Of a stretch of 64,000 nt of DNA, positions 4,199 through 58,649 are shown piece after piece; positions within the stretch are counted from its first letter, which is position 1, and each line of letters starts with the position of its first letter. The stretch spans positions 2,208,001-2,272,000 of the forward strand of contig CM000208.1 in assembly GCA_000002445.1 (NCBI GenBank). The letters are read 5' to 3'. This DNA comes from Trypanosoma brucei (lineage: Eukaryota). The position numbers and the translations under genes were made by a program. The notes under the pieces were generated by a model, which saw only the letters and a program-made list of their open reading frames with translations, did not search any database and was not told the DNA's origin.

Positions 4199-6121
4199 AT
4201 GAGTTTCGCCCCTACGCGGTCACTACCCAACGAGGTAAACGAGCCTTTGCCAACGCTGCAATCCGAGGAATCAGGGGAGGCGACATATGTTCATCCTGAT
4301 GCCCGTGCTCTTTTTAACAAGGTACCATGCCTTCGCCGTCTCCCAATGTTTGGTACAGCTGCAGAAGGTTATGGTCCTAAAGCTGTGATGTCCATCAGTT
4401 TGTCGTATTTCCTATGCAAAGGCTTGTCTGACTACTTGGTTCGAGACTCTCTTCTGGCCATGTTTACCCAGCGTTTTGGAGTGGATGTTTCCGTTTACCA
4501 ACGTTTAAGCAACGTCGCGAACATGGGATGGTCCGTTAAGCCCTTGACCGCAGTGGTTAGTGATATCTTCCCCTTATTTGGTTACAGTAAGCGGTGGTAT
4601 ATGTTCATTTCATGCCTCATAGGCCCATTACTATCCCTTGGCTTTGGCTTGTTACCAGGCAAAGAATCAAGTGCAGCCATAGGTGCTGCACTAGTTTTCC
4701 TTTGCTGTTTCACTAAAGCCAATGTGGACATCCTTGCTGAGGGTCATTACAGTCGCATGATGCGCCGGGTCCCAGCTCCAGGTCCAGCTCTTGTAAGTTG
4801 GATTTGGTGGTTCATCATCGCTGGGTCTTTCGTTTCATCTTCTGTCGTTGGTCCTTTGGGCGACGCAAAGATCCCTCAAGTGGCTTCGTTCATTGCGAGT
4901 GTTGTGCAGATATTGGTATTGCCTTTCTTCATTTTCAACTGGTTTGGTGAACTTCCAAACCGCGAGGAGCGCTACGGTGATGCCCTACTTCTTTACAAAA
5001 AGGAACGTGAGGAGAGGGAGAAGAAGTGCGACCCATTTTCTGATTCTCTAACACAGCCAGATAGGGCCATAAACAGCGAGTCTAACCCATTATCCACAGA
5101 GGGGCCTGATGCAGCGGGGCTCGTTCCGTATGAGGGTGGGGCACCCACGGGTGACGGAGACTTAAGCTCATTTCACTTTCAGGAGCCAGGTTCTTGCTGT
5201 TGTGGTGTGTTTGAGTACAACAAGGAAGTCGTCGAACGTAACGGTCGCGCCACAGTTTACAGCATTCTCATTGGTTTGTTTGTACTGGTTGTGGCTGTAA
5301 CTTCCGTTTTAGGTTCAACGACCTACCTAACTGTGGTAGCTATTGTGGTTTCCTTGTTGCACTGCAGTTTCAATTTCTACGCTTTTCCGTTGATCATTGC
5401 GAAGGCTAACCTCTTCGGTTACTTGCAGAGGGCCACATCAGTAAGCTTCCCCGGTGCACTTTCAAACTTCTTTATCGCTGAAGCCGATTGTCTCGCAGAT
5501 GGCCCGCACTTCAGCTTTGCCTTCTATCAGACTGTTGGAGGCATTATCAGCTGCGCCGCATCGATAGTTGGCATCATGCTGTTCAACTACATTTTTTCGA
5601 AACGCACGTACCGAATGACCTACTTGTCGACACTTTCCCTCGGCATTTTTTCAAGTATCTTCGATCTTGTACTTGTTATGAGGTGGAACCGGCCGCACGT
5701 TAGTGATCACGCGCTGTACATCATGGGTGATGCCATTATATCTCCCGTGATTTCCATGTTGAATTGGATGCCTCAAATTGTCCTACTTTCGCGGTTGTGT
5801 CCTAGGGGAAGTGAAAGCACAGTGTATTCCATTCTTGCCGCCTCCAGCAACTTGGGTGCTTCCATGGGAAGTGTCGTTGGGTCAGTTGTCATGGAGTATG
5901 CCTTGCCCGTGTCATCAAAATTGCCTTGCAACTTTGAAAATCTGAAGTGGCTCGTCGTGATTGCAGGTTTCTTGGCACCGCTGCTTCAGATACCAATGGT
6001 TTTCACTCTCCTTCCACGTGCGCGCATGTGCGACGATCTTGACGTAGACAATGCAACAGCCAAGAAAAAGTCAGAGATTCAGAAAGAAGTTGCTGAAGTG
6101 CAGGAGAGCGGTAGTACTTAA
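4199..6121 (+). CDS. folate/biopterin transporter (BT1/FBT family, MFS-like)
   Basis: ATG start. The 640 aa product has a hydrophilic N-terminus of about 60 aa, roughly 12 hydrophobic segments, and a central hydrophilic loop of about 100 aa. The motif NMGWSVKPLTAVVSDIFPLFGYSKRWYM matches the conserved WxxKPxxGxxSDxxPxxGxxRRxY signature of BT1-family transporters. A polypyrimidine tract lies upstream (about 4080-4160). Confidence 0.6.
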   Translation: MSFAPTRSLPNEVNEPLPTLQSEESGEATYVHPDARALFNKVPCLRRLPMFGTAAEGYGPKAVMSISLSYFLCKGLSDYLVRDSLLAMFTQRFGVDVSVYQRLSNVANMGWSVKPLTAVVSDIFPLFGYSKRWYMFISCLIGPLLSLGFGLLPGKESSAAIGAALVFLCCFTKANVDILAEGHYSRMMRRVPAPGPALVSWIWWFIIAGSFVSSSVVGPLGDAKIPQVASFIASVVQILVLPFFIFNWFGELPNREERYGDALLLYKKEREEREKKCDPFSDSLTQPDRAINSESNPLSTEGPDAAGLVPYEGGAPTGDGDLSSFHFQEPGSCCCGVFEYNKEVVERNGRATVYSILIGLFVLVVAVTSVLGSTTYLTVVAIVVSLLHCSFNFYAFPLIIAKANLFGYLQRATSVSFPGALSNFFIAEADCLADGPHFSFAFYQTVGGIISCAASIVGIMLFNYIFSKRTYRMTYLSTLSLGIFSSIFDLVLVMRWNRPHVSDHALYIMGDAIISPVISMLNWMPQIVLLSRLCPRGSESTVYSILAASSNLGASMGSVVGSVVMEYALPVSSKLPCNFENLKWLVVIAGFLAPLLQIPMVFTLLPRARMCDDLDVDNATAKKKSEIQKEVAEVQESGST

Positions 6122-7774
6122 TATCATTAGGGCGCAGCGACGCTTCGTTTACAAGCTTTTCAAGGCGAGGAGGAGCTCGGTGTAAACACGTTTTTTTCTT
6201 CCCTCCTCTCGGAGAGATTGCAACTGCATTTTCCCTTATTAATTATTTTCGTTCTTTTCCTCAGGTGCGGCACATTCTTCCGGGACTAAAGCGAACGCGC
6301 TTTTTCTTGCGTTGCGTCGTGAACACCCGTTAGCCGCCACGACGAAAATTCTCTTACCTTGTTGTTTGTTTTCCCATTTTTAAAAAGATTACGGAGGCTG
6401 TGCGTAGAAGTTGTTGCGAGCAAAAACACATCTACAAACAGCTAAATCAAGTCAAAGAACTTACGGATAATTCCAAACTTACGTTTTACTACTGTAATCC
6501 CTTCCCTTTTTTAATTGTTGTTTCCTCTTCTTTTTTTTTCCGTTTCCTTTCCTGTTCGCTTATATGTCTGCCTTGTCCGTAGACGATTGTTGTACTTCTT
6601 TGAGTTCTTTAGCAATTTGTTAAATCAGGGGTGACCAGATCCCCCTTTCCCCCTTTTTTTTTCAGCAACCGGTGTTGTAAAAAATTTTCGTGTGTTATTG
6701 CCGTTCTTAATCTGTTCCCTTTTTTCTTTTTCCCTTTCCTTTTTTTCTTAACTACTTTTCATCTTTTTTTATTTTTGTTTCTCTTGTTTTCACTGCTGAT
6801 TAACGGCTGGCAGTGCAGTATGCGATCGTTATATATTTTCTTTTTTTTGTTGTTGTTTCACTTCGGTTCAGGGGAGCACGTGCGGATATTTAAAAATTCC
6901 GACACGCGCGTTTGTTTATATTTAGATGATGAAAGTTTCATCCATTGTTGTCACTCAAAACTTATTTTTTTCTGTTTTGTTTTTAGAACAACTCGTCTTC
7001 TTTTTATCGGTATTTTCGGAAGTTATGCTTCTTTTTTTGTTTGTTTTTAAATGCTAGCGTCGCTGTCATTTGCACAACGGTATATATGCATATAAGCTGT
7101 TCCTACACCTGAACTTAGTCTGTATAACCTTTTTGAAGCGCTCCCATCACTGACTTAACCGTGAATTTCGCTCCTTTTTAAAATTTTTTTTTGGTTTAGT
7201 TTTCTTGACCTCTTACTTGCCTACACTACAAACAAACAAGAAAAAAAAAAAGAAAGGTAATATGACGATGCAAGGCTTTGTTTCAATGAGTTTCGAATTG
7301 CTGACGCCAACCCCCTGGCCTCCCGGATGAGAAAATCACATATATCTGTTTCCTCCATGCTTTCGTTTATCTCCTTCTTTCGCTTCATCATCAGCTGTGC
7401 CTTTCTCAACAAAAATGTTCTTTTTTTTTGGGGGGGGGGAGGGGGTAACAATTCGGTGTATACCAAAAACATACGAAAGAACCGAGTAACTTGTCACAGT
7501 GATTTTGCACCATTTGTTAGTGGTTGACTAAAAGGTGAATGGTACCACTAAGGGAGAGGAGGACGGTGTGGATGATACAAGGTCCGATGAAAAAATATTA
7601 CAATATGAAAGCAGGGAAACCGTAAGCGCGGGCGTGCGTTTTTATATTCGTCTTGTTTCTCTCTCTCTCCCTCTCTTTATTTCTCGTTGAGCAGGTGGGC
7701 ATTCTGCGGCGTAGCGTTAAAGGAAGAGAATAAAAGAGAGGAAGAGAGATAGAGAAATAGAGTTAGGGGAGTAC

Positions 7775-8500
7775 ATGAGCTGGAGGGTTTCCTGCAAGAC
7801 TGCACTGTTGGATGAACTCTTCACATACATCGCTGGGAAAACTGATGCGAACACATTACAAAAGGAATGTGTTTTAGCTCTGCCACAACTGGAAACATTG
7901 GCAAAGATGTTAGGTTTTTCACTAGATGACATGTCAATGTACCGCTTGGCGTGGAGCTGGTCGTGCGAGGCGCCACTGTGCATTCGAAAAAGTGAATTTG
8001 TGAATGGGATGAATGCCATTTGTAGTGGCGTGAAGCTTTCCGCCACCGCGACTTCCTCCACATGCTCGGCGTCACCGGTTAAATCACCCAAGAAGGAATT
8101 TGAGCCAATTCTCTTGGCGTTGCGGAACCATGTTGAAACTCTGGATGGTGCGTTGCGCGGTGATGTGACAAAGTTTAGACATTTTTACCGCTTCATTTAC
8201 AAGTGGGTTCAGTCTCCTTTAACGATGGAGAGGAATATGGGTCAAGTAGGAATGTCCATCGAAACCGCTGTGGAATTATGGCGGATGCTTTTTCCACACT
8301 ACAGGGAGTTTAAACGATTGGATGACTGGATAACATTCTGTATGAGTAAAAAGCTTTTCCCTCACGGGATCATTAGTCGAGATTTGTGGGAGCAGTTGCT
8401 GGAGTTCACCTTTGTGACAGACTACAGCAAGTATGATGTTAGTGATGCATGGCCCAGTGCAATGGATGATTTTGTTGAGTACGTTAAATCAAAAGTGTGA
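7775..8500 (+). CDS. DCN1-like protein (defective in cullin neddylation; PONY/DCUN1 domain)
   Basis: ATG start, 241 aa. The C-terminal two thirds match the PONY domain pattern: FRHFYRFIYKWV...SIETAVELWRMLF...FKRLDDWITFC...ISRDLWEQLLEFTFVT...YDVSDAWPSAMDDFVEY. No N-terminal UBA domain is visible. Confidence 0.65.
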   Translation: MSWRVSCKTALLDELFTYIAGKTDANTLQKECVLALPQLETLAKMLGFSLDDMSMYRLAWSWSCEAPLCIRKSEFVNGMNAICSGVKLSATATSSTCSASPVKSPKKEFEPILLALRNHVETLDGALRGDVTKFRHFYRFIYKWVQSPLTMERNMGQVGMSIETAVELWRMLFPHYREFKRLDDWITFCMSKKLFPHGIISRDLWEQLLEFTFVTDYSKYDVSDAWPSAMDDFVEYVKSKV

Positions 8501-54017: not shown

Positions 54018-55100
54018 ATGACAGTTTGTCTTGTTCTACTAACTGGGCTGCCAGGAGCGGGGAAGACGACACTAGGCAAGGCTCTTAAACAGTTGGGGGA
54101 TCACATAACCCATGAACTCTCCCTCATAGTCACGGCAGTGGTGGAATTAGATGACTTTATGTGTAACGTCGGTGCGAGTAATGGGTCCCGTGTAGAGAGT
54201 ACCGTTTTCGATCCAAGTCGGTGGCGAGAGGCGTTCGAAGCGGCTCGTCAGGCAACTCGCCAGGAGTTGGAGCGGTGCCTAATGATGGAGAGGAATAAAG
54301 CGGTAATGCACTTGGTTTTTCTGGTGGATCCGCTGCCATATAGGAGTATGAGAGCATCGTACTGGAAAATGTGCAAGGAATTAAGTGCCAAGTGTGCTGA
54401 GACTCACTTTCATGATTCATGGGAAGTGCAGAGCATTGTTGTCTTGTTGGAGGTGCGGATGAACACCCCGGAGGAGGTTTGTCTCCAACGCAATGAGCTC
54501 CGCGCCGGAACCCCGCAGTATATTCCCCCGTATGTTATTAAGGGGATAAGTGACTCGTTTGACCGTGGTGACCTCACTGCTGTGCTGCCGGGTACAGACG
54601 GAAATATGTGGGCCGTACTTCCCGGGCAGAGGTCGGCACCGTGGCCCGTTCTTTTACTGGTTGATGAAGTGAGATGTTGCGCGTCACCACCCAATTTGTT
54701 GGCCACGCAGTTGCTGGAGCGTATCCGAGGGGAAGACATAATGCGTGAGATGACGGAACAACAAGTAAGTGTTTTTAATTATTACAAGTGCCAAGTGGAA
54801 GGGGGGAAGTCGAAGTGCTTGGCGAGTGGAGAAGCACATGACAACGTTAACAACTGTCTTCATCAAGTGGACCTCCACATGCGGGCAGTTGTGGGACATT
54901 ACATGGTCCAGCGGCAGAGTATTGGTTCACTGAAGCCAGGCACTGGGCAACGCGTAAGCAAATGTCGTTCGACCCACTACGCGGGAATTCGGGCAGCAAT
55001 CACGAAGGGAACGAGAAACACAGGAGGATCTTTTTCCGAAGTGCAAGGACTACTGCAGCAGTTACTTTTGGAATTCGAGCATGCCTTAGTAGATCTTTGA
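54018..55100 (+). CDS. P-loop kinase of the KTI12/PSTK family (possible O-phosphoseryl-tRNA(Sec) kinase or KTI12 homologue)
   Basis: ATG start, 360 aa. The N-terminal Walker A at the very start, MTVCLVLLTGLPGAGKTTLGKAL, is as in KTI12 (MPLVLLTGyPsSGKTT) and PSTK. The size fits both. The two cannot be told apart without alignment. Confidence 0.45.
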   Translation: MTVCLVLLTGLPGAGKTTLGKALKQLGDHITHELSLIVTAVVELDDFMCNVGASNGSRVESTVFDPSRWREAFEAARQATRQELERCLMMERNKAVMHLVFLVDPLPYRSMRASYWKMCKELSAKCAETHFHDSWEVQSIVVLLEVRMNTPEEVCLQRNELRAGTPQYIPPYVIKGISDSFDRGDLTAVLPGTDGNMWAVLPGQRSAPWPVLLLVDEVRCCASPPNLLATQLLERIRGEDIMREMTEQQVSVFNYYKCQVEGGKSKCLASGEAHDNVNNCLHQVDLHMRAVVGHYMVQRQSIGSLKPGTGQRVSKCRSTHYAGIRAAITKGTRNTGGSFSEVQGLLQQLLLEFEHALVDL

Positions 55101-55624
55101 GAAACGTGCACGAGGTATGCTGTTGGGTGTGGCAAAAGTTGCTGAGAGCAAATGTCACGTGGTTGTTTGACGTGTCAGCTCCTTCATCTGTGCTGGTGGT
55201 GATTACCGGCATGTGTCTCTTGAGAAGGTACATGTGAGTTTAGATCCTTTTTTTTTGTTTTTAGTGTCTGCAAACTTTCCCACGTGTTGGTCGTGTTCTC
55301 TGTCACATCCCCCTCCCCTGCCGCTCTGTCGTCCGCGCCTTGCTGGGACTGGAGAGTTTGCCCTCATCTGTGCGTGTACACGTATCCCGTACGTCCCTAA
55401 CTTTTCTATCATTTCCTCCCCCCGTTGTTTCGCTCTCTGTTTACTTGTTTTTCACGTAGTGTCGGCTGCACTTCTCTCCTTCAAGGGGGTTAGCACTTTA
55501 TTCCCTCACTTCATCCTTCTGATTTTTTTTTCCTTTTCCTTCGTTATATATCTTCACTTCTGTCTGTGTCGACTCATGGAACCGTTCCCACTAGACACAC
55601 ACACCCACACACCGTAGGAGTGCA

Positions 55625-56548
55625 ATGGAATCCACAGTCACCGGTGAACCGTGTCATGCGTGCGAAAAGCAGGAAACAACTGATGAACACAGTCGCTGTG
55701 GCCGCGGGACGCTGCCGCTGTACCACATTCATTCAACGAAAGTGCCAGAATACATGAAGGACAATCCATACATCTATACTGGCTATAGGGCACAGTATAC
55801 CACTATGATGTGCCTGCGGAGTTTCCTTGCGGTTCACAATGAGTCGTTGAACGTGTGGACCCATGCGTTTGGGTTTGTTGTTTTTGTATTGCTTTCAATT
55901 CTACTTTTCACGAACGTGGTGCTGGCCCGAGAGTACGTTTGGCACTGTGTAGTTTATGGAGGCTTTAGTTTTGCTTGCCTAATGTGTATGCTATGTAGCA
56001 CAGTTTACCATCTGTTCATGTGCCATGAGAATGAGGCAGTTTCATTGTTTGTGGAGCTTGTGGACTATCATGGCATTAGTGTCCTCATAGTGGCGAGTTA
56101 CATTCCCCTGCTTTACATTGGTTTCGCCTGTAAGCCATATTACCGGGCAATTTATATGGTGAGCATCATCATGTTTGGTACTTTAAGCGTTGTTTTCTCC
56201 TCTCTACCAAGTCTCCGTGATGCAAAGTATCGATGGATTCGCACAACTGTTTACATTCTCATGGCTGTAGGGGGAATTGTGCCCCTCCTACATTTCTATG
56301 CCTTTACACCCCACAATACTGAAAGTATGATGCCACTCAAAGGTGTGGCACTCATGTTTGCACTTTACGGTGCTGGAGTCCTCTTCTACACATCCCGAAT
56401 TCCTGAACGTTGGTTCCCTGGTCGGTTTGACATATACCTTTCAAGTCATCAAATATGGCACGTTTTTGTACTTGCAGCCGCCTGTGTTCATTTTTTCAGT
56501 TGCACAGCACTGTATCAGCAGTGGTTGGTGAGCCGACACATTTGTTAA
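55625..56548 (+). CDS. PAQR family protein (Hly-III/adiponectin-receptor-like, 7-TM)
   Basis: ATG start, 307 aa. PAQR motif I is YIYTGYRAQYTTMMCLRSFLAVHNESLNVWTHAFGF; it is followed by 7 hydrophobic segments. The C-terminal motif is GRFDIYLSSHQIWHVFVLAAACVHF (the HxxxH zinc site of the Hly-III family). Confidence 0.75.
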   Translation: MESTVTGEPCHACEKQETTDEHSRCGRGTLPLYHIHSTKVPEYMKDNPYIYTGYRAQYTTMMCLRSFLAVHNESLNVWTHAFGFVVFVLLSILLFTNVVLAREYVWHCVVYGGFSFACLMCMLCSTVYHLFMCHENEAVSLFVELVDYHGISVLIVASYIPLLYIGFACKPYYRAIYMVSIIMFGTLSVVFSSLPSLRDAKYRWIRTTVYILMAVGGIVPLLHFYAFTPHNTESMMPLKGVALMFALYGAGVLFYTSRIPERWFPGRFDIYLSSHQIWHVFVLAAACVHFFSCTALYQQWLVSRHIC

Positions 56549-56672
56549 ACTTTGAGTACACATGCTGTACCACTTGGGGAAGCAAATGCTGCTAAAAGGT
56601 GATGGCGCTCGATTGAGGCAGAGTGAATAAATTAAGCGGTGACGGTCCGAAATGGTGGTGTGGGGAGGCAGG

Positions 56673-56699
56673 CGAGAGAGAGAGAGAGAGAGAGAGAGA
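56673..56699. repeat. (GA)n microsatellite, about 13 units
   Basis: gagagagaga... run in the spacer between the two PAQR genes, followed about 200 nt later by (AT)10 at 56901-56920. Confidence 0.9.
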
Positions 56700-57599
56700 A
56701 AAAAACGTCAGGTAATGCGGCTTTGATGATATCATCTACCGTATTCGGTATATAGACTGTTGTTCGTGTTGTCTCCCCACCCACCTTTTTTTTAAACACC
56801 ATTTAATATATCCATTTTGATTTTTTTTCTTTCGGGAAGTATTGTGGGTTGCTGAAGGACGGGTTTCACACAATGTTTTTCTGTTGTAATTTTTTTTGTT
56901 ATATATATATATATATATATAAGCCTTACCATTTACGCTTTTTCACTCGCTGTAGTGCCCACGTTGTGTTGCCTGCATGTAGTTATCTCGTATATTAGCG
57001 TACACGTGACGAAGTTGAGGAAGCAAAGGGGGAAAAGTGCTACGAAGAGGGACCGGAGAAACGATGATAAAAAAAGAAAAAAAACCGACATAATTGGTTA
57101 TTTTCTTGGTATAAAATAAATATGCACTCGCACATTCCTTTCTTGTTTCCCCCACTTAACCCAACACATATCATTTTTTAGGTACGCACGCAATTATTTT
57201 ACATGGCGCCCGCCCTGCTCTTTCTTTTTTTTTTTCACCTTTCATTTCCCGTCTGGTGGTGGGAATCAAAATCACGGCACAATCGCTCCACTGTTATATT
57301 AAATGCGGTGGAGAGGGGGGGTTGTCTTCCCTTTTTTTCTTTTGTTTTACGGTGTGTTTTTCCGCTTACATACGTGTATCCACGTAGGAATTTTCGAGTA
57401 TGCGCCTTGATTCCTTTATATTTGTCACTAAGTTAAAAGATTTGTCTCATTACTTGTTTAAAACTCACTCGTTTGGGTAGGCTTAGTCGTCGGTATCGTG
57501 GCCATAAGGAATCCGGTACATTCGACTGGGCAGGCAAAAATTCTCGTGTGCGACAGAACTTTTACGACACGCAAAAGCATCCATTCTGAAGTTTAAAAG

Positions 57600-58649
57600 A
57601 TGATTTCATCGAGATTTCGAGGGGAAAACGTGAGCTCGGCATCAACAACCATCACAACAAATGGCGGCGATCAAAGTGAGAAAACATGCAGTTCCTCCTC
57701 AAGCATGCGTGCGACTGAGGCGCCAGTACCGTACAACAGTAATCCAGATCTTCCATTGTATACTGTCGATCAGGTTCCACCCCATCTTGCGGAAAATTTA
57801 TACATTCATACCGGCTATCGCATGAATTATAGTGCAGGCATGTGCTTCCGTAGTGTTTTGGCTTTGCATAATGAAACTTTTAACGTATGGACGCATCTTA
57901 TTGGGTTCGTCATATTTCTCATTGTCTCTTTTGTTTTTTCGATCGGAGTTCTGATTCCCAGGTTGACGGACCGTCCAGGGGAGGGCAGCGAAACCGGTGG
58001 CAGTTCCTTCCCCGACACGGTGTCTCTGCTTGGTTTCCACTGGCCGACACTTTCTATATTTGCAGTGTATTCTGTGAGTTGTCTCATGTGTATGCTCTGC
58101 AGTGCGGCCTTTCATACGTTGATTCCTCACAACCATCCAGTAATATACCGCATTGCTCATACATTGGATTACTTTGGCATCACCTTCCTTGTAGTTGGGT
58201 CATTTCTGCCCATGTGTTACTTCTGCTTTGCATGCAAACCGCACTTGAGATATATTTACCTTATTATGGTGTCGCTGTTTGGTGTTGGTGGGCTTGTGGG
58301 TCCCTGTTTTCGAAGGTGGACTGATCCAGCTTACATGTGCGCAAAGATCACCTTTTACGTTTGTATGGTTGGAAGCGGTCTCTTGCCCGTTTTTCACATT
58401 TACTTAACACTTCCCAGTAGCGCCACGGCATCGGTTGTACAAGGTTTATTACTTATGATGGGTCTCTATGGAGTGGGTGTTATGATTTACGCATTGAAAG
58501 TGCCTGAGTCCTTGTACCCTGGCGAGTTTGATATTTATCTTTCCAGTCACCAATTGTGGCATGTTTTTGTGCTGTGCGCAGCTGTTGTTCACTTCTTTAA
58601 TTGCGCTTCCATGTACATTAACTTTGATAAAATGGCGCTCAACTGCTAG
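57600..58649 (+). CDS. PAQR family protein (Hly-III/adiponectin-receptor-like), tandem paralogue of 55625..56548
   Basis: ATG start, 349 aa. Motifs are YIHTGYRMNYSAGMCFRSVLALHNETFNVWTHLIGF and GEFDIYLSSHQLWHVFVLCAAVVHF. It shares blocks with the upstream paralogue but has a different N-terminal tail and an inserted loop (PRLTDRPGEGSETGGSSFPDTVSLLGFHWPTLS). Confidence 0.75.
   Translation: MISSRFRGENVSSASTTITTNGGDQSEKTCSSSSSMRATEAPVPYNSNPDLPLYTVDQVPPHLAENLYIHTGYRMNYSAGMCFRSVLALHNETFNVWTHLIGFVIFLIVSFVFSIGVLIPRLTDRPGEGSETGGSSFPDTVSLLGFHWPTLSIFAVYSVSCLMCMLCSAAFHTLIPHNHPVIYRIAHTLDYFGITFLVVGSFLPMCYFCFACKPHLRYIYLIMVSLFGVGGLVGPCFRRWTDPAYMCAKITFYVCMVGSGLLPVFHIYLTLPSSATASVVQGLLLMMGLYGVGVMIYALKVPESLYPGEFDIYLSSHQLWHVFVLCAAVVHFFNCASMYINFDKMALNC

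What the first reader, a model, noticed from the sequence alone, without database searches (positions are those of the whole stretch)
55625..58649. Tandem pair of diverged PAQR (Hly-III/AdipoR-like) 7-TM genes
Two adjacent same-strand genes, 55625..56548 and 57600..58649, encode proteins with the PAQR hallmark motifs. Compare YIYTGYRAQY...HNESLNVWTHAFGF with YIHTGYRMNY...HNETFNVWTHLIGF, and GRFDIYLSSHQIWHVFVLAAACVHF with GEFDIYLSSHQLWHVFVLCAAVVHF. They differ in N-terminal tails and carry a loop insertion only in the second copy. This indicates an old tandem duplication followed by sub-functionalisation rather than a recent repeat. PAQRs act as ceramidase-like or hormone-receptor-like membrane hydrolases. 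Their ligands and roles in trypanosomatids are essentially unknown.
Basis: seen in the sequence. Interest (0 to 1): 0.5.

Follow-up and report, generated by a model that had tools for sequence, protein, structure and literature searches.

The report
Old tandem pair of AdipoR-like genes
Two neighbouring Trypanosoma brucei genes encode intact, anciently diverged relatives of the adiponectin-receptor family of zinc-dependent membrane lipid hydrolases; both are real and conserved, but they are already annotated and ordinary, and their function has not been studied.

Summary
ORFs 55625..56548 (307 aa, "A") and 57600..58649 (349 aa, "B") both match Pfam HlyIII/PAQR (E 2.6e-57 and 1.1e-50). They are 38% identical to each other, and human AdipoR1/2 is the best sequence and fold match for both. 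All eight signature residues are intact in both copies. The window is T. brucei, and the genes are already annotated publicly as "adiponectin receptor protein 1" and "hemolysin-III related".

The duplication is old. B belongs to a 100%-bootstrap clade spanning Trypanosoma, Leishmania, Angomonas, Strigomonas and Phytomonas, and that clade is marked by a variable insertion in the TM1-TM2 loop. A lies outside it. The syntenic array holds 1 to 4 copies depending on lineage. A is missing without remnant in T. vivax, T. rangeli and Phytomonas, whereas B is present in every trypanosomatid locus examined. Both copies are under purifying selection (omega 0.20 and 0.12).

The most likely function is a zinc-dependent, ceramidase-like intramembrane lipid hydrolase involved in membrane lipid homeostasis. 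This is inferred by homology only. "Sub-functionalisation" is plausible but untested.

Verdict: already known and of low interest. Side note: the PCIF1-like gene that flanks the pair in other trypanosomatids is absent here, and no homolog was returned from any African trypanosome.

The parts
55625..56548 (+). PAQR-A coding sequence (307 aa), an AdipoR-like class I PAQR. It is 99% identical to T. b. equiperdum 'adiponectin receptor protein 1'.
   Evidence: ORF. Pfam HlyIII E 2.6e-57. AdipoR1 5lxg E 2.5e-49. AF2 pLDDT 92.7 with seven long helices. Foldseek AdipoR1 TM 0.82-0.89, rmsd 2.1 A. P0001 at 99% identity.
57600..58649 (+). PAQR-B coding sequence (349 aa), an AdipoR-like class I PAQR. It is 99% identical to T. 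b. equiperdum 'hemolysin-III related' and belongs to the pan-trypanosomatid orthogroup.
   Evidence: ORF. Pfam HlyIII E 1.1e-50. AdipoR1 E 1e-40. AF2 pLDDT 88.1. Foldseek AdipoR1/2 TM 0.67-0.87. 100% bootstrap clade with Leishmania copy 3, Angomonas, Strigomonas and Phytomonas.
57969..58016 (+). B-specific insertion in the loop between TM1 and TM2 (residues 124-139, DRPGEGSETGGSSFPD). It is predicted to be exoplasmic and disordered.
   Evidence: Gap in the pairwise alignment. The motif-A His to SxxxH Ser distance is 61-72 residues in all 14 B-clade proteins, against 43-52 in A, Leishmania copies 1 and 2, a bodonid, a plant and Capsaspora. The loop sequence is not conserved among B orthologs. 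The loop is non-helical with pLDDT 59-74. The exoplasmic side is inferred from the AdipoR topology of N-terminus inside (PMC7427782).
55997..56011 (+). A: SxxxH motif (S125-H129, STVYH) at the end of TM2. H129 aligns with the zinc ligand His191 of AdipoR1.
   Evidence: Zinc ligands as given in PMC7427782.
56063..56065 (+). A: conserved Asp147 at the start of TM3 (AdipoR1 Asp208).
56447..56461 (+). A: HxxxH motif (H275-H279, HQIWH) in TM7 (AdipoR1 His337/His341).
58101..58115 (+). B: SxxxH motif (S168-H172, SAAFH).
58167..58169 (+). B: conserved Asp190.
58548..58562 (+). B: HxxxH motif (H317-H321, HQLWH).
56549..57599 (+). 1051-bp spacer between the two genes. It carries (GA)13, (TA)11 and pyrimidine tracts typical of trypanosome intergenic (UTR and trans-splicing) regions, and has no ORF or RNA family match.
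   Evidence: Sequence. Repeat and pyrimidine tract positions. No Rfam hit. No repeat shared between the genes.

Best explanation
These are two functional, anciently diverged paralogs of the AdipoR-like (class I) branch of the PAQR family. They lie head-to-tail in one polycistronic unit of T. brucei, probably on chromosome 10 (inferred only from the name of the T. congolense ortholog, TCIL3000_10_8070). SHOWN: both have the full HlyIII domain, a confidently predicted seven-helix AdipoR fold, and every residue that in human AdipoR1 binds zinc (three His) or sits beside it (Ser, Asp). Both evolve under purifying selection. The A/B split predates the last common ancestor of trypanosomatids. The locus is a tandem array that expanded and contracted: 3 paralog types in Leishmania and Angomonas, 2 in most Trypanosoma, and 1 in T. 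vivax, T. rangeli and Phytomonas. B was retained in every trypanosomatid locus examined, whereas A can be lost. INFERRED by homology: each protein sits in a membrane with its N-terminus in the cytoplasm. It holds a zinc ion in a cavity open to the cytoplasmic leaflet and hydrolyses an amide- or ester-linked fatty acyl lipid. The most likely substrate is ceramide, which would yield a sphingoid base plus a free fatty acid. Through this activity the proteins would regulate membrane lipid composition, as proposed for yeast Izh2, C. elegans PAQR-2 and mammalian AdipoR1/2. B's extra exoplasmic loop and A's dispensability suggest the two are not interchangeable, perhaps differing in compartment, partner or substrate. 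No adiponectin-like ligand is expected.
For: Domain and motifs. In the 76- and 75-sequence alignments the invariant columns include S125/H129/D147/H275/H279 in A and S168/H172/D190/H317/H321 in B. Closest solved relatives are AdipoR1/2 only. Models have pLDDT 92.7 and 88.1, and the fold matches AdipoR1/2 at TM up to 0.89, with alkaline ceramidase ACER3 and Myomaker as distant next hits. Purifying selection: omega 0.20 (A) and 0.12 (B) between T. theileri and T. melophagium, against 0.21 and 0.25 for two neighbouring genes. Age of the split: NJ tree; clade-specific loop insertion; reciprocal best hits pairing A with Leishmania copy 2 and B with Leishmania copy 3. Synteny. Family mechanism (zinc site, ceramidase proposal, fluidity sensing): PMC7427782, PMC8088037, PMC3146951.
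Against: No experiment or expression data for these genes could be reached. The biochemical activity is inferred purely from conserved residues and fold. Even for human AdipoR1 the zinc site is not needed for its main signalling output, and the ceramidase activity is described as 'putative' (PMC7427782). The tree is neighbour-joining only and its deep nodes are weak: A with Leishmania copy 2 has 32% bootstrap, and the position of bodonid sequences is unresolved. Absence of A in T. vivax and T. rangeli was shown at the syntenic locus and in the protein search, not by whole-genome scans.
Confidence: 0.7

Rival explanations
1. The proteins are non-enzymatic sensors or receptors. They keep the zinc site only as a structural brace and act as membrane-property or ligand sensors that signal through partners, without hydrolysing lipid.
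For: [quoted passage not shown] AdipoRs and PAQR-2 are described as fluidity sensors independent of adiponectin (PMC8088037). B's variable exoplasmic loop could be a partner or ligand surface.
Against: Ser and Asp, which are not zinc ligands but sit next to the site, are invariant in all 76 and 75 aligned sequences. That is what a catalytic site predicts. Yeast Izh2 and AdipoRs were reported to act as ceramidases (PMC8088037). The B loop is not conserved in sequence, which argues against a specific ligand-binding site.
Confidence: 0.22
2. The pair is a recent duplication or an assembly artefact.
For: Only the adjacency and shared orientation of the two genes.
Against: Amino-acid identity is 38% and pS is 0.82, which is saturated. 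No DNA repeat longer than 30 nt is shared. The same pair is present in an independent T. b. equiperdum assembly and in four other Trypanosoma species.
Confidence: 0.01
3. One copy, most likely A, is a decaying or non-functional gene in T. brucei.
For: A has been lost in T. vivax, T. rangeli and Phytomonas, so it is dispensable in some lineages. One Angomonas copy is frame-shifted.
Against: The T. brucei A ORF is intact, all eight signature residues are kept, and 100 columns are invariant across seven Trypanosoma A orthologs. Omega is 0.20 between orthologs and the model has pLDDT 92.7.
Confidence: 0.04
4. The proteins are pore-forming cytolysins, as the database name 'hemolysin-III related' suggests.
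For: Only the Pfam family name, HlyIII, and the source annotation.
Against: The best sequence and fold relatives are eukaryotic AdipoR1/2, plant HHPs and fungal Izh-like proteins, not bacterial hemolysin III. The CREST analysis places these in the eukaryotic PAQR group and argues for hydrolase function (PMC3146951).
Confidence: 0.03

Closest known systems
Human adiponectin receptors AdipoR1/AdipoR2 (PAQR1/2; PDB 5LXG, 6KS0, 5LWY)
   Same: The 7-TM fold is the same (TM-score up to 0.89, rmsd 2.1-2.9 A). Identity is 27-32% over about 280 residues. The zinc ligands (three His), the neighbouring Ser and Asp, and the pre-TM1 ExxNxxxH motif are all the same.
   Different: Trypanosomes have no adiponectin, so any 'receptor' role must differ. 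The N-terminal tails are unrelated. B carries a 17-27 residue insertion in the first exoplasmic loop that AdipoRs lack.
Yeast Izh1-4, plant HHP1-5 and C. elegans PAQR-2 (class I PAQRs of non-vertebrates)
   Same: They belong to the same family branch: Arabidopsis HHP1 and fungal Izh-like proteins are among the homologs at E 1e-32 to 1e-40. They also occur as multi-copy paralog sets and are implicated in lipid and membrane homeostasis without a protein hormone (PMC8088037).
   Different: No functional data exist for the trypanosomatid proteins. The trypanosomatid paralogs sit in one conserved tandem array.
T. brucei CREST-superfamily tandem genes Tb927.7.6110/6150/6170 (GPI-PLA2, PGAP6/TMEM8-like)
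   Same: They are also a tandem array of 7-TM CREST-superfamily hydrolase genes in T. brucei, with the Ser/His/Asp/His/His signature. One member has a proven lipid hydrolase activity (PMC10457582).
   Different: They belong to a different CREST branch (TMEM8/PGAP6, not PAQR), lie on a different chromosome, and share 50-66% identity among copies against 38% here. One of those copies has lost catalytic residues, whereas both copies here keep them.
Alkaline ceramidase ACER3 (PDB 6G7O)
   Same: It is a distant fold relative with the same zinc-His3 intramembrane site, and appears as the next-best non-AdipoR hit.
   Different: Identity is only 12-13%, TM-score 0.35-0.51 and E 0.03-0.13. It is a different family within the CREST superfamily.

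Membership tests
PAQR / HlyIII family (Pfam PF03006) | Full-length match to the HlyIII profile above the gathering score | tested here: met
   A scores 194.5 bits and B 172.9 bits against a cutoff of 26.2. Both cover profile positions 2-224 of 224.
PAQR / HlyIII family (Pfam PF03006) | Seven transmembrane helices | tested here: met
   The AF2 models show seven long helices: in A 74-102, 105-131, 137-166, 171-198, 200-227, 232-257 and 274-303, with the equivalent helices in B.
PAQR / CREST signature | SxxxH at the end of TM2, Asp at the start of TM3 and HxxxH in TM7, plus the PAQR pre-TM1 ExxNxxxH motif | tested here: met
   All eight residues are present in A and B and in all 28 full-length trypanosomatid and outgroup sequences tabulated. 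The two N-truncated Angomonas gene calls keep the five residues they cover. The residues are invariant in the 76- and 75-sequence alignments. The motif definition comes from PMC3146951.
Class I (AdipoR-like) PAQR | Closest relatives are AdipoR1/2, Izh or HHP rather than mPR (class II) or bacterial hemolysin III/MMD (class III) | tested here: met
   The only PDB sequence hits are AdipoR1/2, at E 1e-39 to 1e-49. The named homologs are plant HHP, a fungal protein that its source names 'hemolysin-iii channel protein', PAQR3 and 'adiponectin receptor'. No explicit tree with human PAQR5-11 was built.
Class I (AdipoR-like) PAQR | AdipoR three-dimensional fold with an internal cavity | tested here: met
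   Foldseek against AdipoR1 6ks0 gives E 3.7e-17, TM 0.82/0.88 and rmsd 2.1 A for A, and E 1.4e-15, TM 0.70/0.85 for B.
Class I (AdipoR-like) PAQR | Zinc bound by the three His residues | not testable with these tools
   The residues are conserved, but metal binding needs experiment, and the model geometry could not be measured.
Class I (AdipoR-like) PAQR | N-terminus cytoplasmic and C-terminus exoplasmic (the inverse of GPCR topology) | tested here: inconclusive
   The K+R count in predicted inside loops exceeds that in outside loops only weakly: excluding the N-terminal tail, 4 against 2 in A and 3 against 3 in B. The topology is therefore taken from AdipoR homology (PMC7427782).
Ceramidase (functional class) | Hydrolysis of ceramide to a sphingoid base plus a fatty acid | not testable with these tools
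   The activity is inferred only from the homology of the site to AdipoR, Izh2 and ACER3.
Adiponectin receptor (functional class) | Binds adiponectin and signals through AMPK/PPAR-alpha | not tested
   Adiponectin is a vertebrate hormone and no parasite ligand is known. The database name 'adiponectin receptor protein 1' is a homology label only.

The most novel reading that the evidence does not exclude
The PAQR array could be the trypanosomatids' ceramidase system. I found no characterised trypanosomatid ceramidase in the searchable literature. Under this reading the universally kept B paralog would supply sphingoid base and fatty acid from ceramide or IPC-derived ceramide for sphingolipid turnover. 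The accessory paralogs (A in Trypanosoma, copies 1 and 2 in Leishmaniinae) would be lineage-tuned versions for different compartments or life-cycle stages. That would make the array a parasite-specific handle on ceramide homeostasis.
Probability: 0.25. Interest if true: 0.5.

Novelty: already known. Interest (0 to 1): 0.18.

Why it matters
The practical significance is modest. These are the only two AdipoR-type proteins of T. brucei returned by two large homology searches, and they have no published functional study. AdipoR-like proteins elsewhere control ceramide levels and membrane fluidity. Trypanosomes remodel their membranes when they move between the insect at about 27 C and the mammal at 37 C. 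A knockout plus lipidomics study of the pair would therefore be a reasonable small project, and B, which is kept in every trypanosomatid locus examined, is the better candidate for an essential role. As a genome-scan finding, however, this is an already annotated member of a well-known family with a conventional evolutionary history. It does not open a long-standing question.

Tried and rejected
Synonymous sites are saturated (pS 0.82 in T. brucei; dS 1.65 in T. theileri, unreliable). I used ortholog pairs instead.

(2) I looked for expression evidence in the short Logan contigs that carry gene A (L012-L014). They have no spliced-leader sequence and are collinear with the genome, so they say nothing about transcription.

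(3) 'YHLF' after the catalytic His looked like a shared derived character of A and Leishmania copy 2. It is also present in plant, Capsaspora and bodonid sequences, so it is ancestral and uninformative.

(4) I searched for remnants of A in T. vivax, T. rangeli and Phytomonas, and for a PCIF1-like gene in the window. Nothing scored better than E 0.2.

(5) The first tree attempt, using Biopython bootstrapping, timed out. I replaced it with my own NJ implementation.

(6) Literature searches for PAQR, adiponectin receptor, hemolysin III or ceramidase in trypanosomatids returned no study of these genes.

(7) Zinc-site geometry could not be measured because model coordinates are not exposed.

(8) An Rfam scan of the whole window found nothing.
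Full report
OBSERVATION. They lie in a window where all 27 ORFs of at least 200 aa are on the + strand, as expected for one trypanosomatid polycistron. Both proteins match Pfam PF03006 (HlyIII/PAQR) end to end, with E 2.6e-57 and 1.1e-50. BLASTP between them gives 38% identity, E 3e-74, with one ~23-residue gap in A opposite B residues ~122-144. No DNA repeat longer than 30 nt links the two genes.

ORGANISM AND ANNOTATION. The best hits are 99% identical proteins of Trypanosoma brucei equiperdum, named by their sources "adiponectin receptor protein 1" (A) and "hemolysin-III related" (B). The T. congolense ortholog of A is TCIL3000_10_8070, which points to chromosome 10. The T. b. equiperdum chromosome shows the same gene order. 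The genes are thus already annotated as members of this family. Full-text searches for PAQR, adiponectin receptor, hemolysin III or ceramidase together with trypanosomatids found no functional study of them. The only CREST-superfamily proteins characterised in T. brucei are the unrelated TMEM8/PGAP6-like GPI-PLA2 genes on chromosome 7 (PMC10457582).

ACTIVE SITE AND FOLD. The CREST/PAQR signature is SxxxH at the end of TM2, Asp at the start of TM3 and HxxxH in TM7 (PMC3146951). PAQRs add ExxNxxxH before TM1. A has E73/N76/H80, S125/H129, D147 and H275/H279. B has E92/N95/H99, S168/H172, D190 and H317/H321. In the HMMER alignments to human AdipoR1 these align with Ser187, His191, Asp208, His337 and His341. 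Those three His residues are the zinc ligands and the Ser and Asp are the neighbouring residues (PMC7427782). The same residues are invariant in alignments of 76 and 75 homologs. AlphaFold2 models are confident, with mean pLDDT 92.7 for A and 88.1 for B, and show seven long helices. Foldseek against the PDB returns only AdipoR1/2 as strong hits: A gives E 3.7e-17, TM 0.82/0.88 and rmsd 2.1 A, and B gives E 1.4e-15, TM up to 0.72/0.87. Alkaline ceramidase ACER3 and Myomaker appear as distant CREST relatives. I could not measure the His-His-His geometry because coordinates are not exposed.

AGE OF THE DUPLICATION. I built a neighbour-joining tree from 63 sequences, 301 trimmed columns and 200 bootstraps. 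It places T. brucei B in a 100%-supported clade with B orthologs of nine Trypanosoma species plus Leishmania mexicana copy 3, Angomonas copy 4, Strigomonas and two Phytomonas. The seven Trypanosoma A proteins form their own 100% clade outside it. They join Leishmania copy 2 and Angomonas copy 3 only weakly, at 32%. Reciprocal tblastn agrees, pairing A with Leishmania copy 2 (222 and 221 bits) and B with copy 3 (286 bits). The loop insertion is a clean marker of the B clade. The distance from the motif-A His to the SxxxH Ser is 61-72 residues in all 14 B-clade proteins, against 43-52 in A, Leishmania copies 1 and 2, a bodonid, Arabidopsis and Capsaspora. The inserted sequence itself is hypervariable and hydrophilic, and it is predicted to be non-helical with low confidence. 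Synonymous sites between A and B are saturated, at pS 0.82. The split therefore predates the trypanosomatid ancestor. Whether it predates kinetoplastids is unresolved, because the deep nodes have under 50% support.

SYNTENY AND COPY NUMBER. In T. cruzi, T. grayi, T. theileri and T. melophagium the order is: ~940-aa gene, AAA/KTI12-like gene, PCIF1_WW gene, PAQR-A, PAQR-B, ~300-aa gene. L. mexicana has three PAQR genes after the PCIF1_WW gene. Angomonas has four called PAQR genes. By tblastn these are a frame-shifted type-1 copy, a full type-1 copy, a type-2 copy and the B-type copy, and two of the gene calls are N-terminally truncated. T. vivax, T. rangeli and Phytomonas EM1 have only B, with no detectable remnant of A in the 400-950 bp upstream. 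T. rangeli's close relative T. conorhini keeps A, so A was lost at least twice within Trypanosoma. B is present in every trypanosomatid locus examined.

SELECTION. Nei-Gojobori estimates between T. theileri and T. melophagium give omega 0.20 for A (dS 0.67) and 0.12 for B (dS 0.93). Two neighbouring genes give 0.21 and 0.25. Within Trypanosoma, 100 columns are invariant in A and 108 in B. Only three positions are fixed differently between all A and all B proteins, and one of them lies next to the catalytic His (L130 in A, T173 in B). That position is Leu in outgroups too, so A keeps the ancestral state. Both genes are clearly maintained by selection.

MECHANISM (INFERRED). Everything that defines an AdipoR-type zinc site is conserved. 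Homologs such as yeast Izh2 and AdipoR1/2 have been reported to act as ceramidases and as adiponectin-independent regulators of membrane composition (PMC8088037; PMC7427782). The most likely function is therefore zinc-dependent hydrolysis of ceramide, or of a similar acyl lipid, from the cytoplasmic leaflet, feeding sphingoid-base and fatty-acid signals into lipid homeostasis. The main rival is a non-catalytic sensor role with a structural zinc, which I put at about 0.2. Pseudogene, artefact and cytolysin readings are essentially excluded. "Sub-functionalisation" remains a hypothesis. The different retention patterns and the B-specific loop argue that the copies are not equivalent, but no expression, localisation or activity data were reachable.

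VERDICT. The genes are already annotated members of a well-known family, so novelty is "already known" and interest is low (0.18).

SIDE OBSERVATION. The PCIF1-like gene (PF12237, related to the metazoan cap-specific m6Am methyltransferase) immediately precedes the PAQR array in stercorarian trypanosomes and Leishmaniinae. It is absent from the syntenic position in T. brucei, T. b. equiperdum and T. vivax, and from the whole 64-kb window. A homology search with the T. cruzi protein returned orthologs from T. cruzi, T. conorhini, T. rangeli, T. grayi, T. theileri, Leishmania, Novymonas and Angomonas. It returned none from T. brucei, T. congolense or T. vivax.

Noticed in passing
window 55101-55624 (gap between the AAA/KTI12-like gene and PAQR-A); compare L002 4081-5679, L001 4041-5639, L009 2905-4692, L010 2852-4630, L015 3989-5584, L004 4845-6818, L007 1602-3110: A 500-660 aa PCIF1_WW (PF12237) gene, a homolog of the metazoan cap m6Am methyltransferase PCIF1 (E ~1e-20), sits just upstream of the PAQR array in T. 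cruzi, T. grayi, T. theileri, T. melophagium, T. rangeli, L. mexicana and Angomonas. It is missing at this position in T. brucei, T. b. equiperdum and T. vivax, and tblastn finds no trace in the 64-kb window. A protein search with the T. cruzi protein returned no homolog from T. brucei, T. congolense or T. vivax. This suggests loss in African (salivarian) trypanosomes. The search is word-seeded and scored only 8000 candidates, so a divergent copy could have been missed.
   Followed up: partly
L004 8001-9014, 12542-14035, 15110-16201 (L. mexicana); L007 3353-4302, 4807-5760, 6516-7646, 8001-9014 (Angomonas deanei): The syntenic locus holds three PAQR paralog types in Leishmaniinae. Angomonas has an extra type-1 copy that is split over three reading frames and is probably a pseudogene. 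Two Angomonas gene calls (191 and 216 aa) are N-terminally truncated relative to the tblastn alignments of 319 and 414 residues.
   Followed up: partly
L006 (T. vivax) 6383-7000; L015 (T. rangeli) 5585-6000; L008 (Phytomonas EM1) 7048-8000: PAQR-A is absent with no detectable remnant in these three species, although T. conorhini, a close relative of T. rangeli, keeps it. These are independent losses of the accessory paralog. The 109-aa ORF called in T. vivax at L006 6464-6793 has no similarity to PAQR or PCIF1.
   Followed up: yes
L004 12542-14035 (L. mexicana copy 2, 497 aa) and protein P0082 (569 aa): Type-2 paralogs carry a long N-terminal extension before the PAQR core, of 259 and 329 residues respectively. 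Trypanosoma A has only 49-90 residues there. The content of the extension was not analysed.
   Followed up: no
window 54018-55100: The upstream neighbour is a 360-aa P-loop protein with weak AAA_33, AAA_18 and KTI12 Pfam matches (E 1e-6 to 1e-4). It is conserved in position in every trypanosomatid locus examined except Phytomonas EM1, but is longer in T. vivax at 467 aa.
   Followed up: no
window 55576-55617 and 55596-55612: A 13-codon upstream ORF (MEPFPLDTHTHTP) ends 7 nt before the PAQR-A start codon. The CA-rich stretch inside it differs in length between the window and one T. brucei-group read assembly, L013.
   Followed up: no
window 1-64000: All 27 ORFs of at least 200 aa are on the + strand, forming a single polycistronic unit with steadily rising cumulative GC skew. 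No Rfam family reaches its gathering score anywhere in the window.
   Followed up: no
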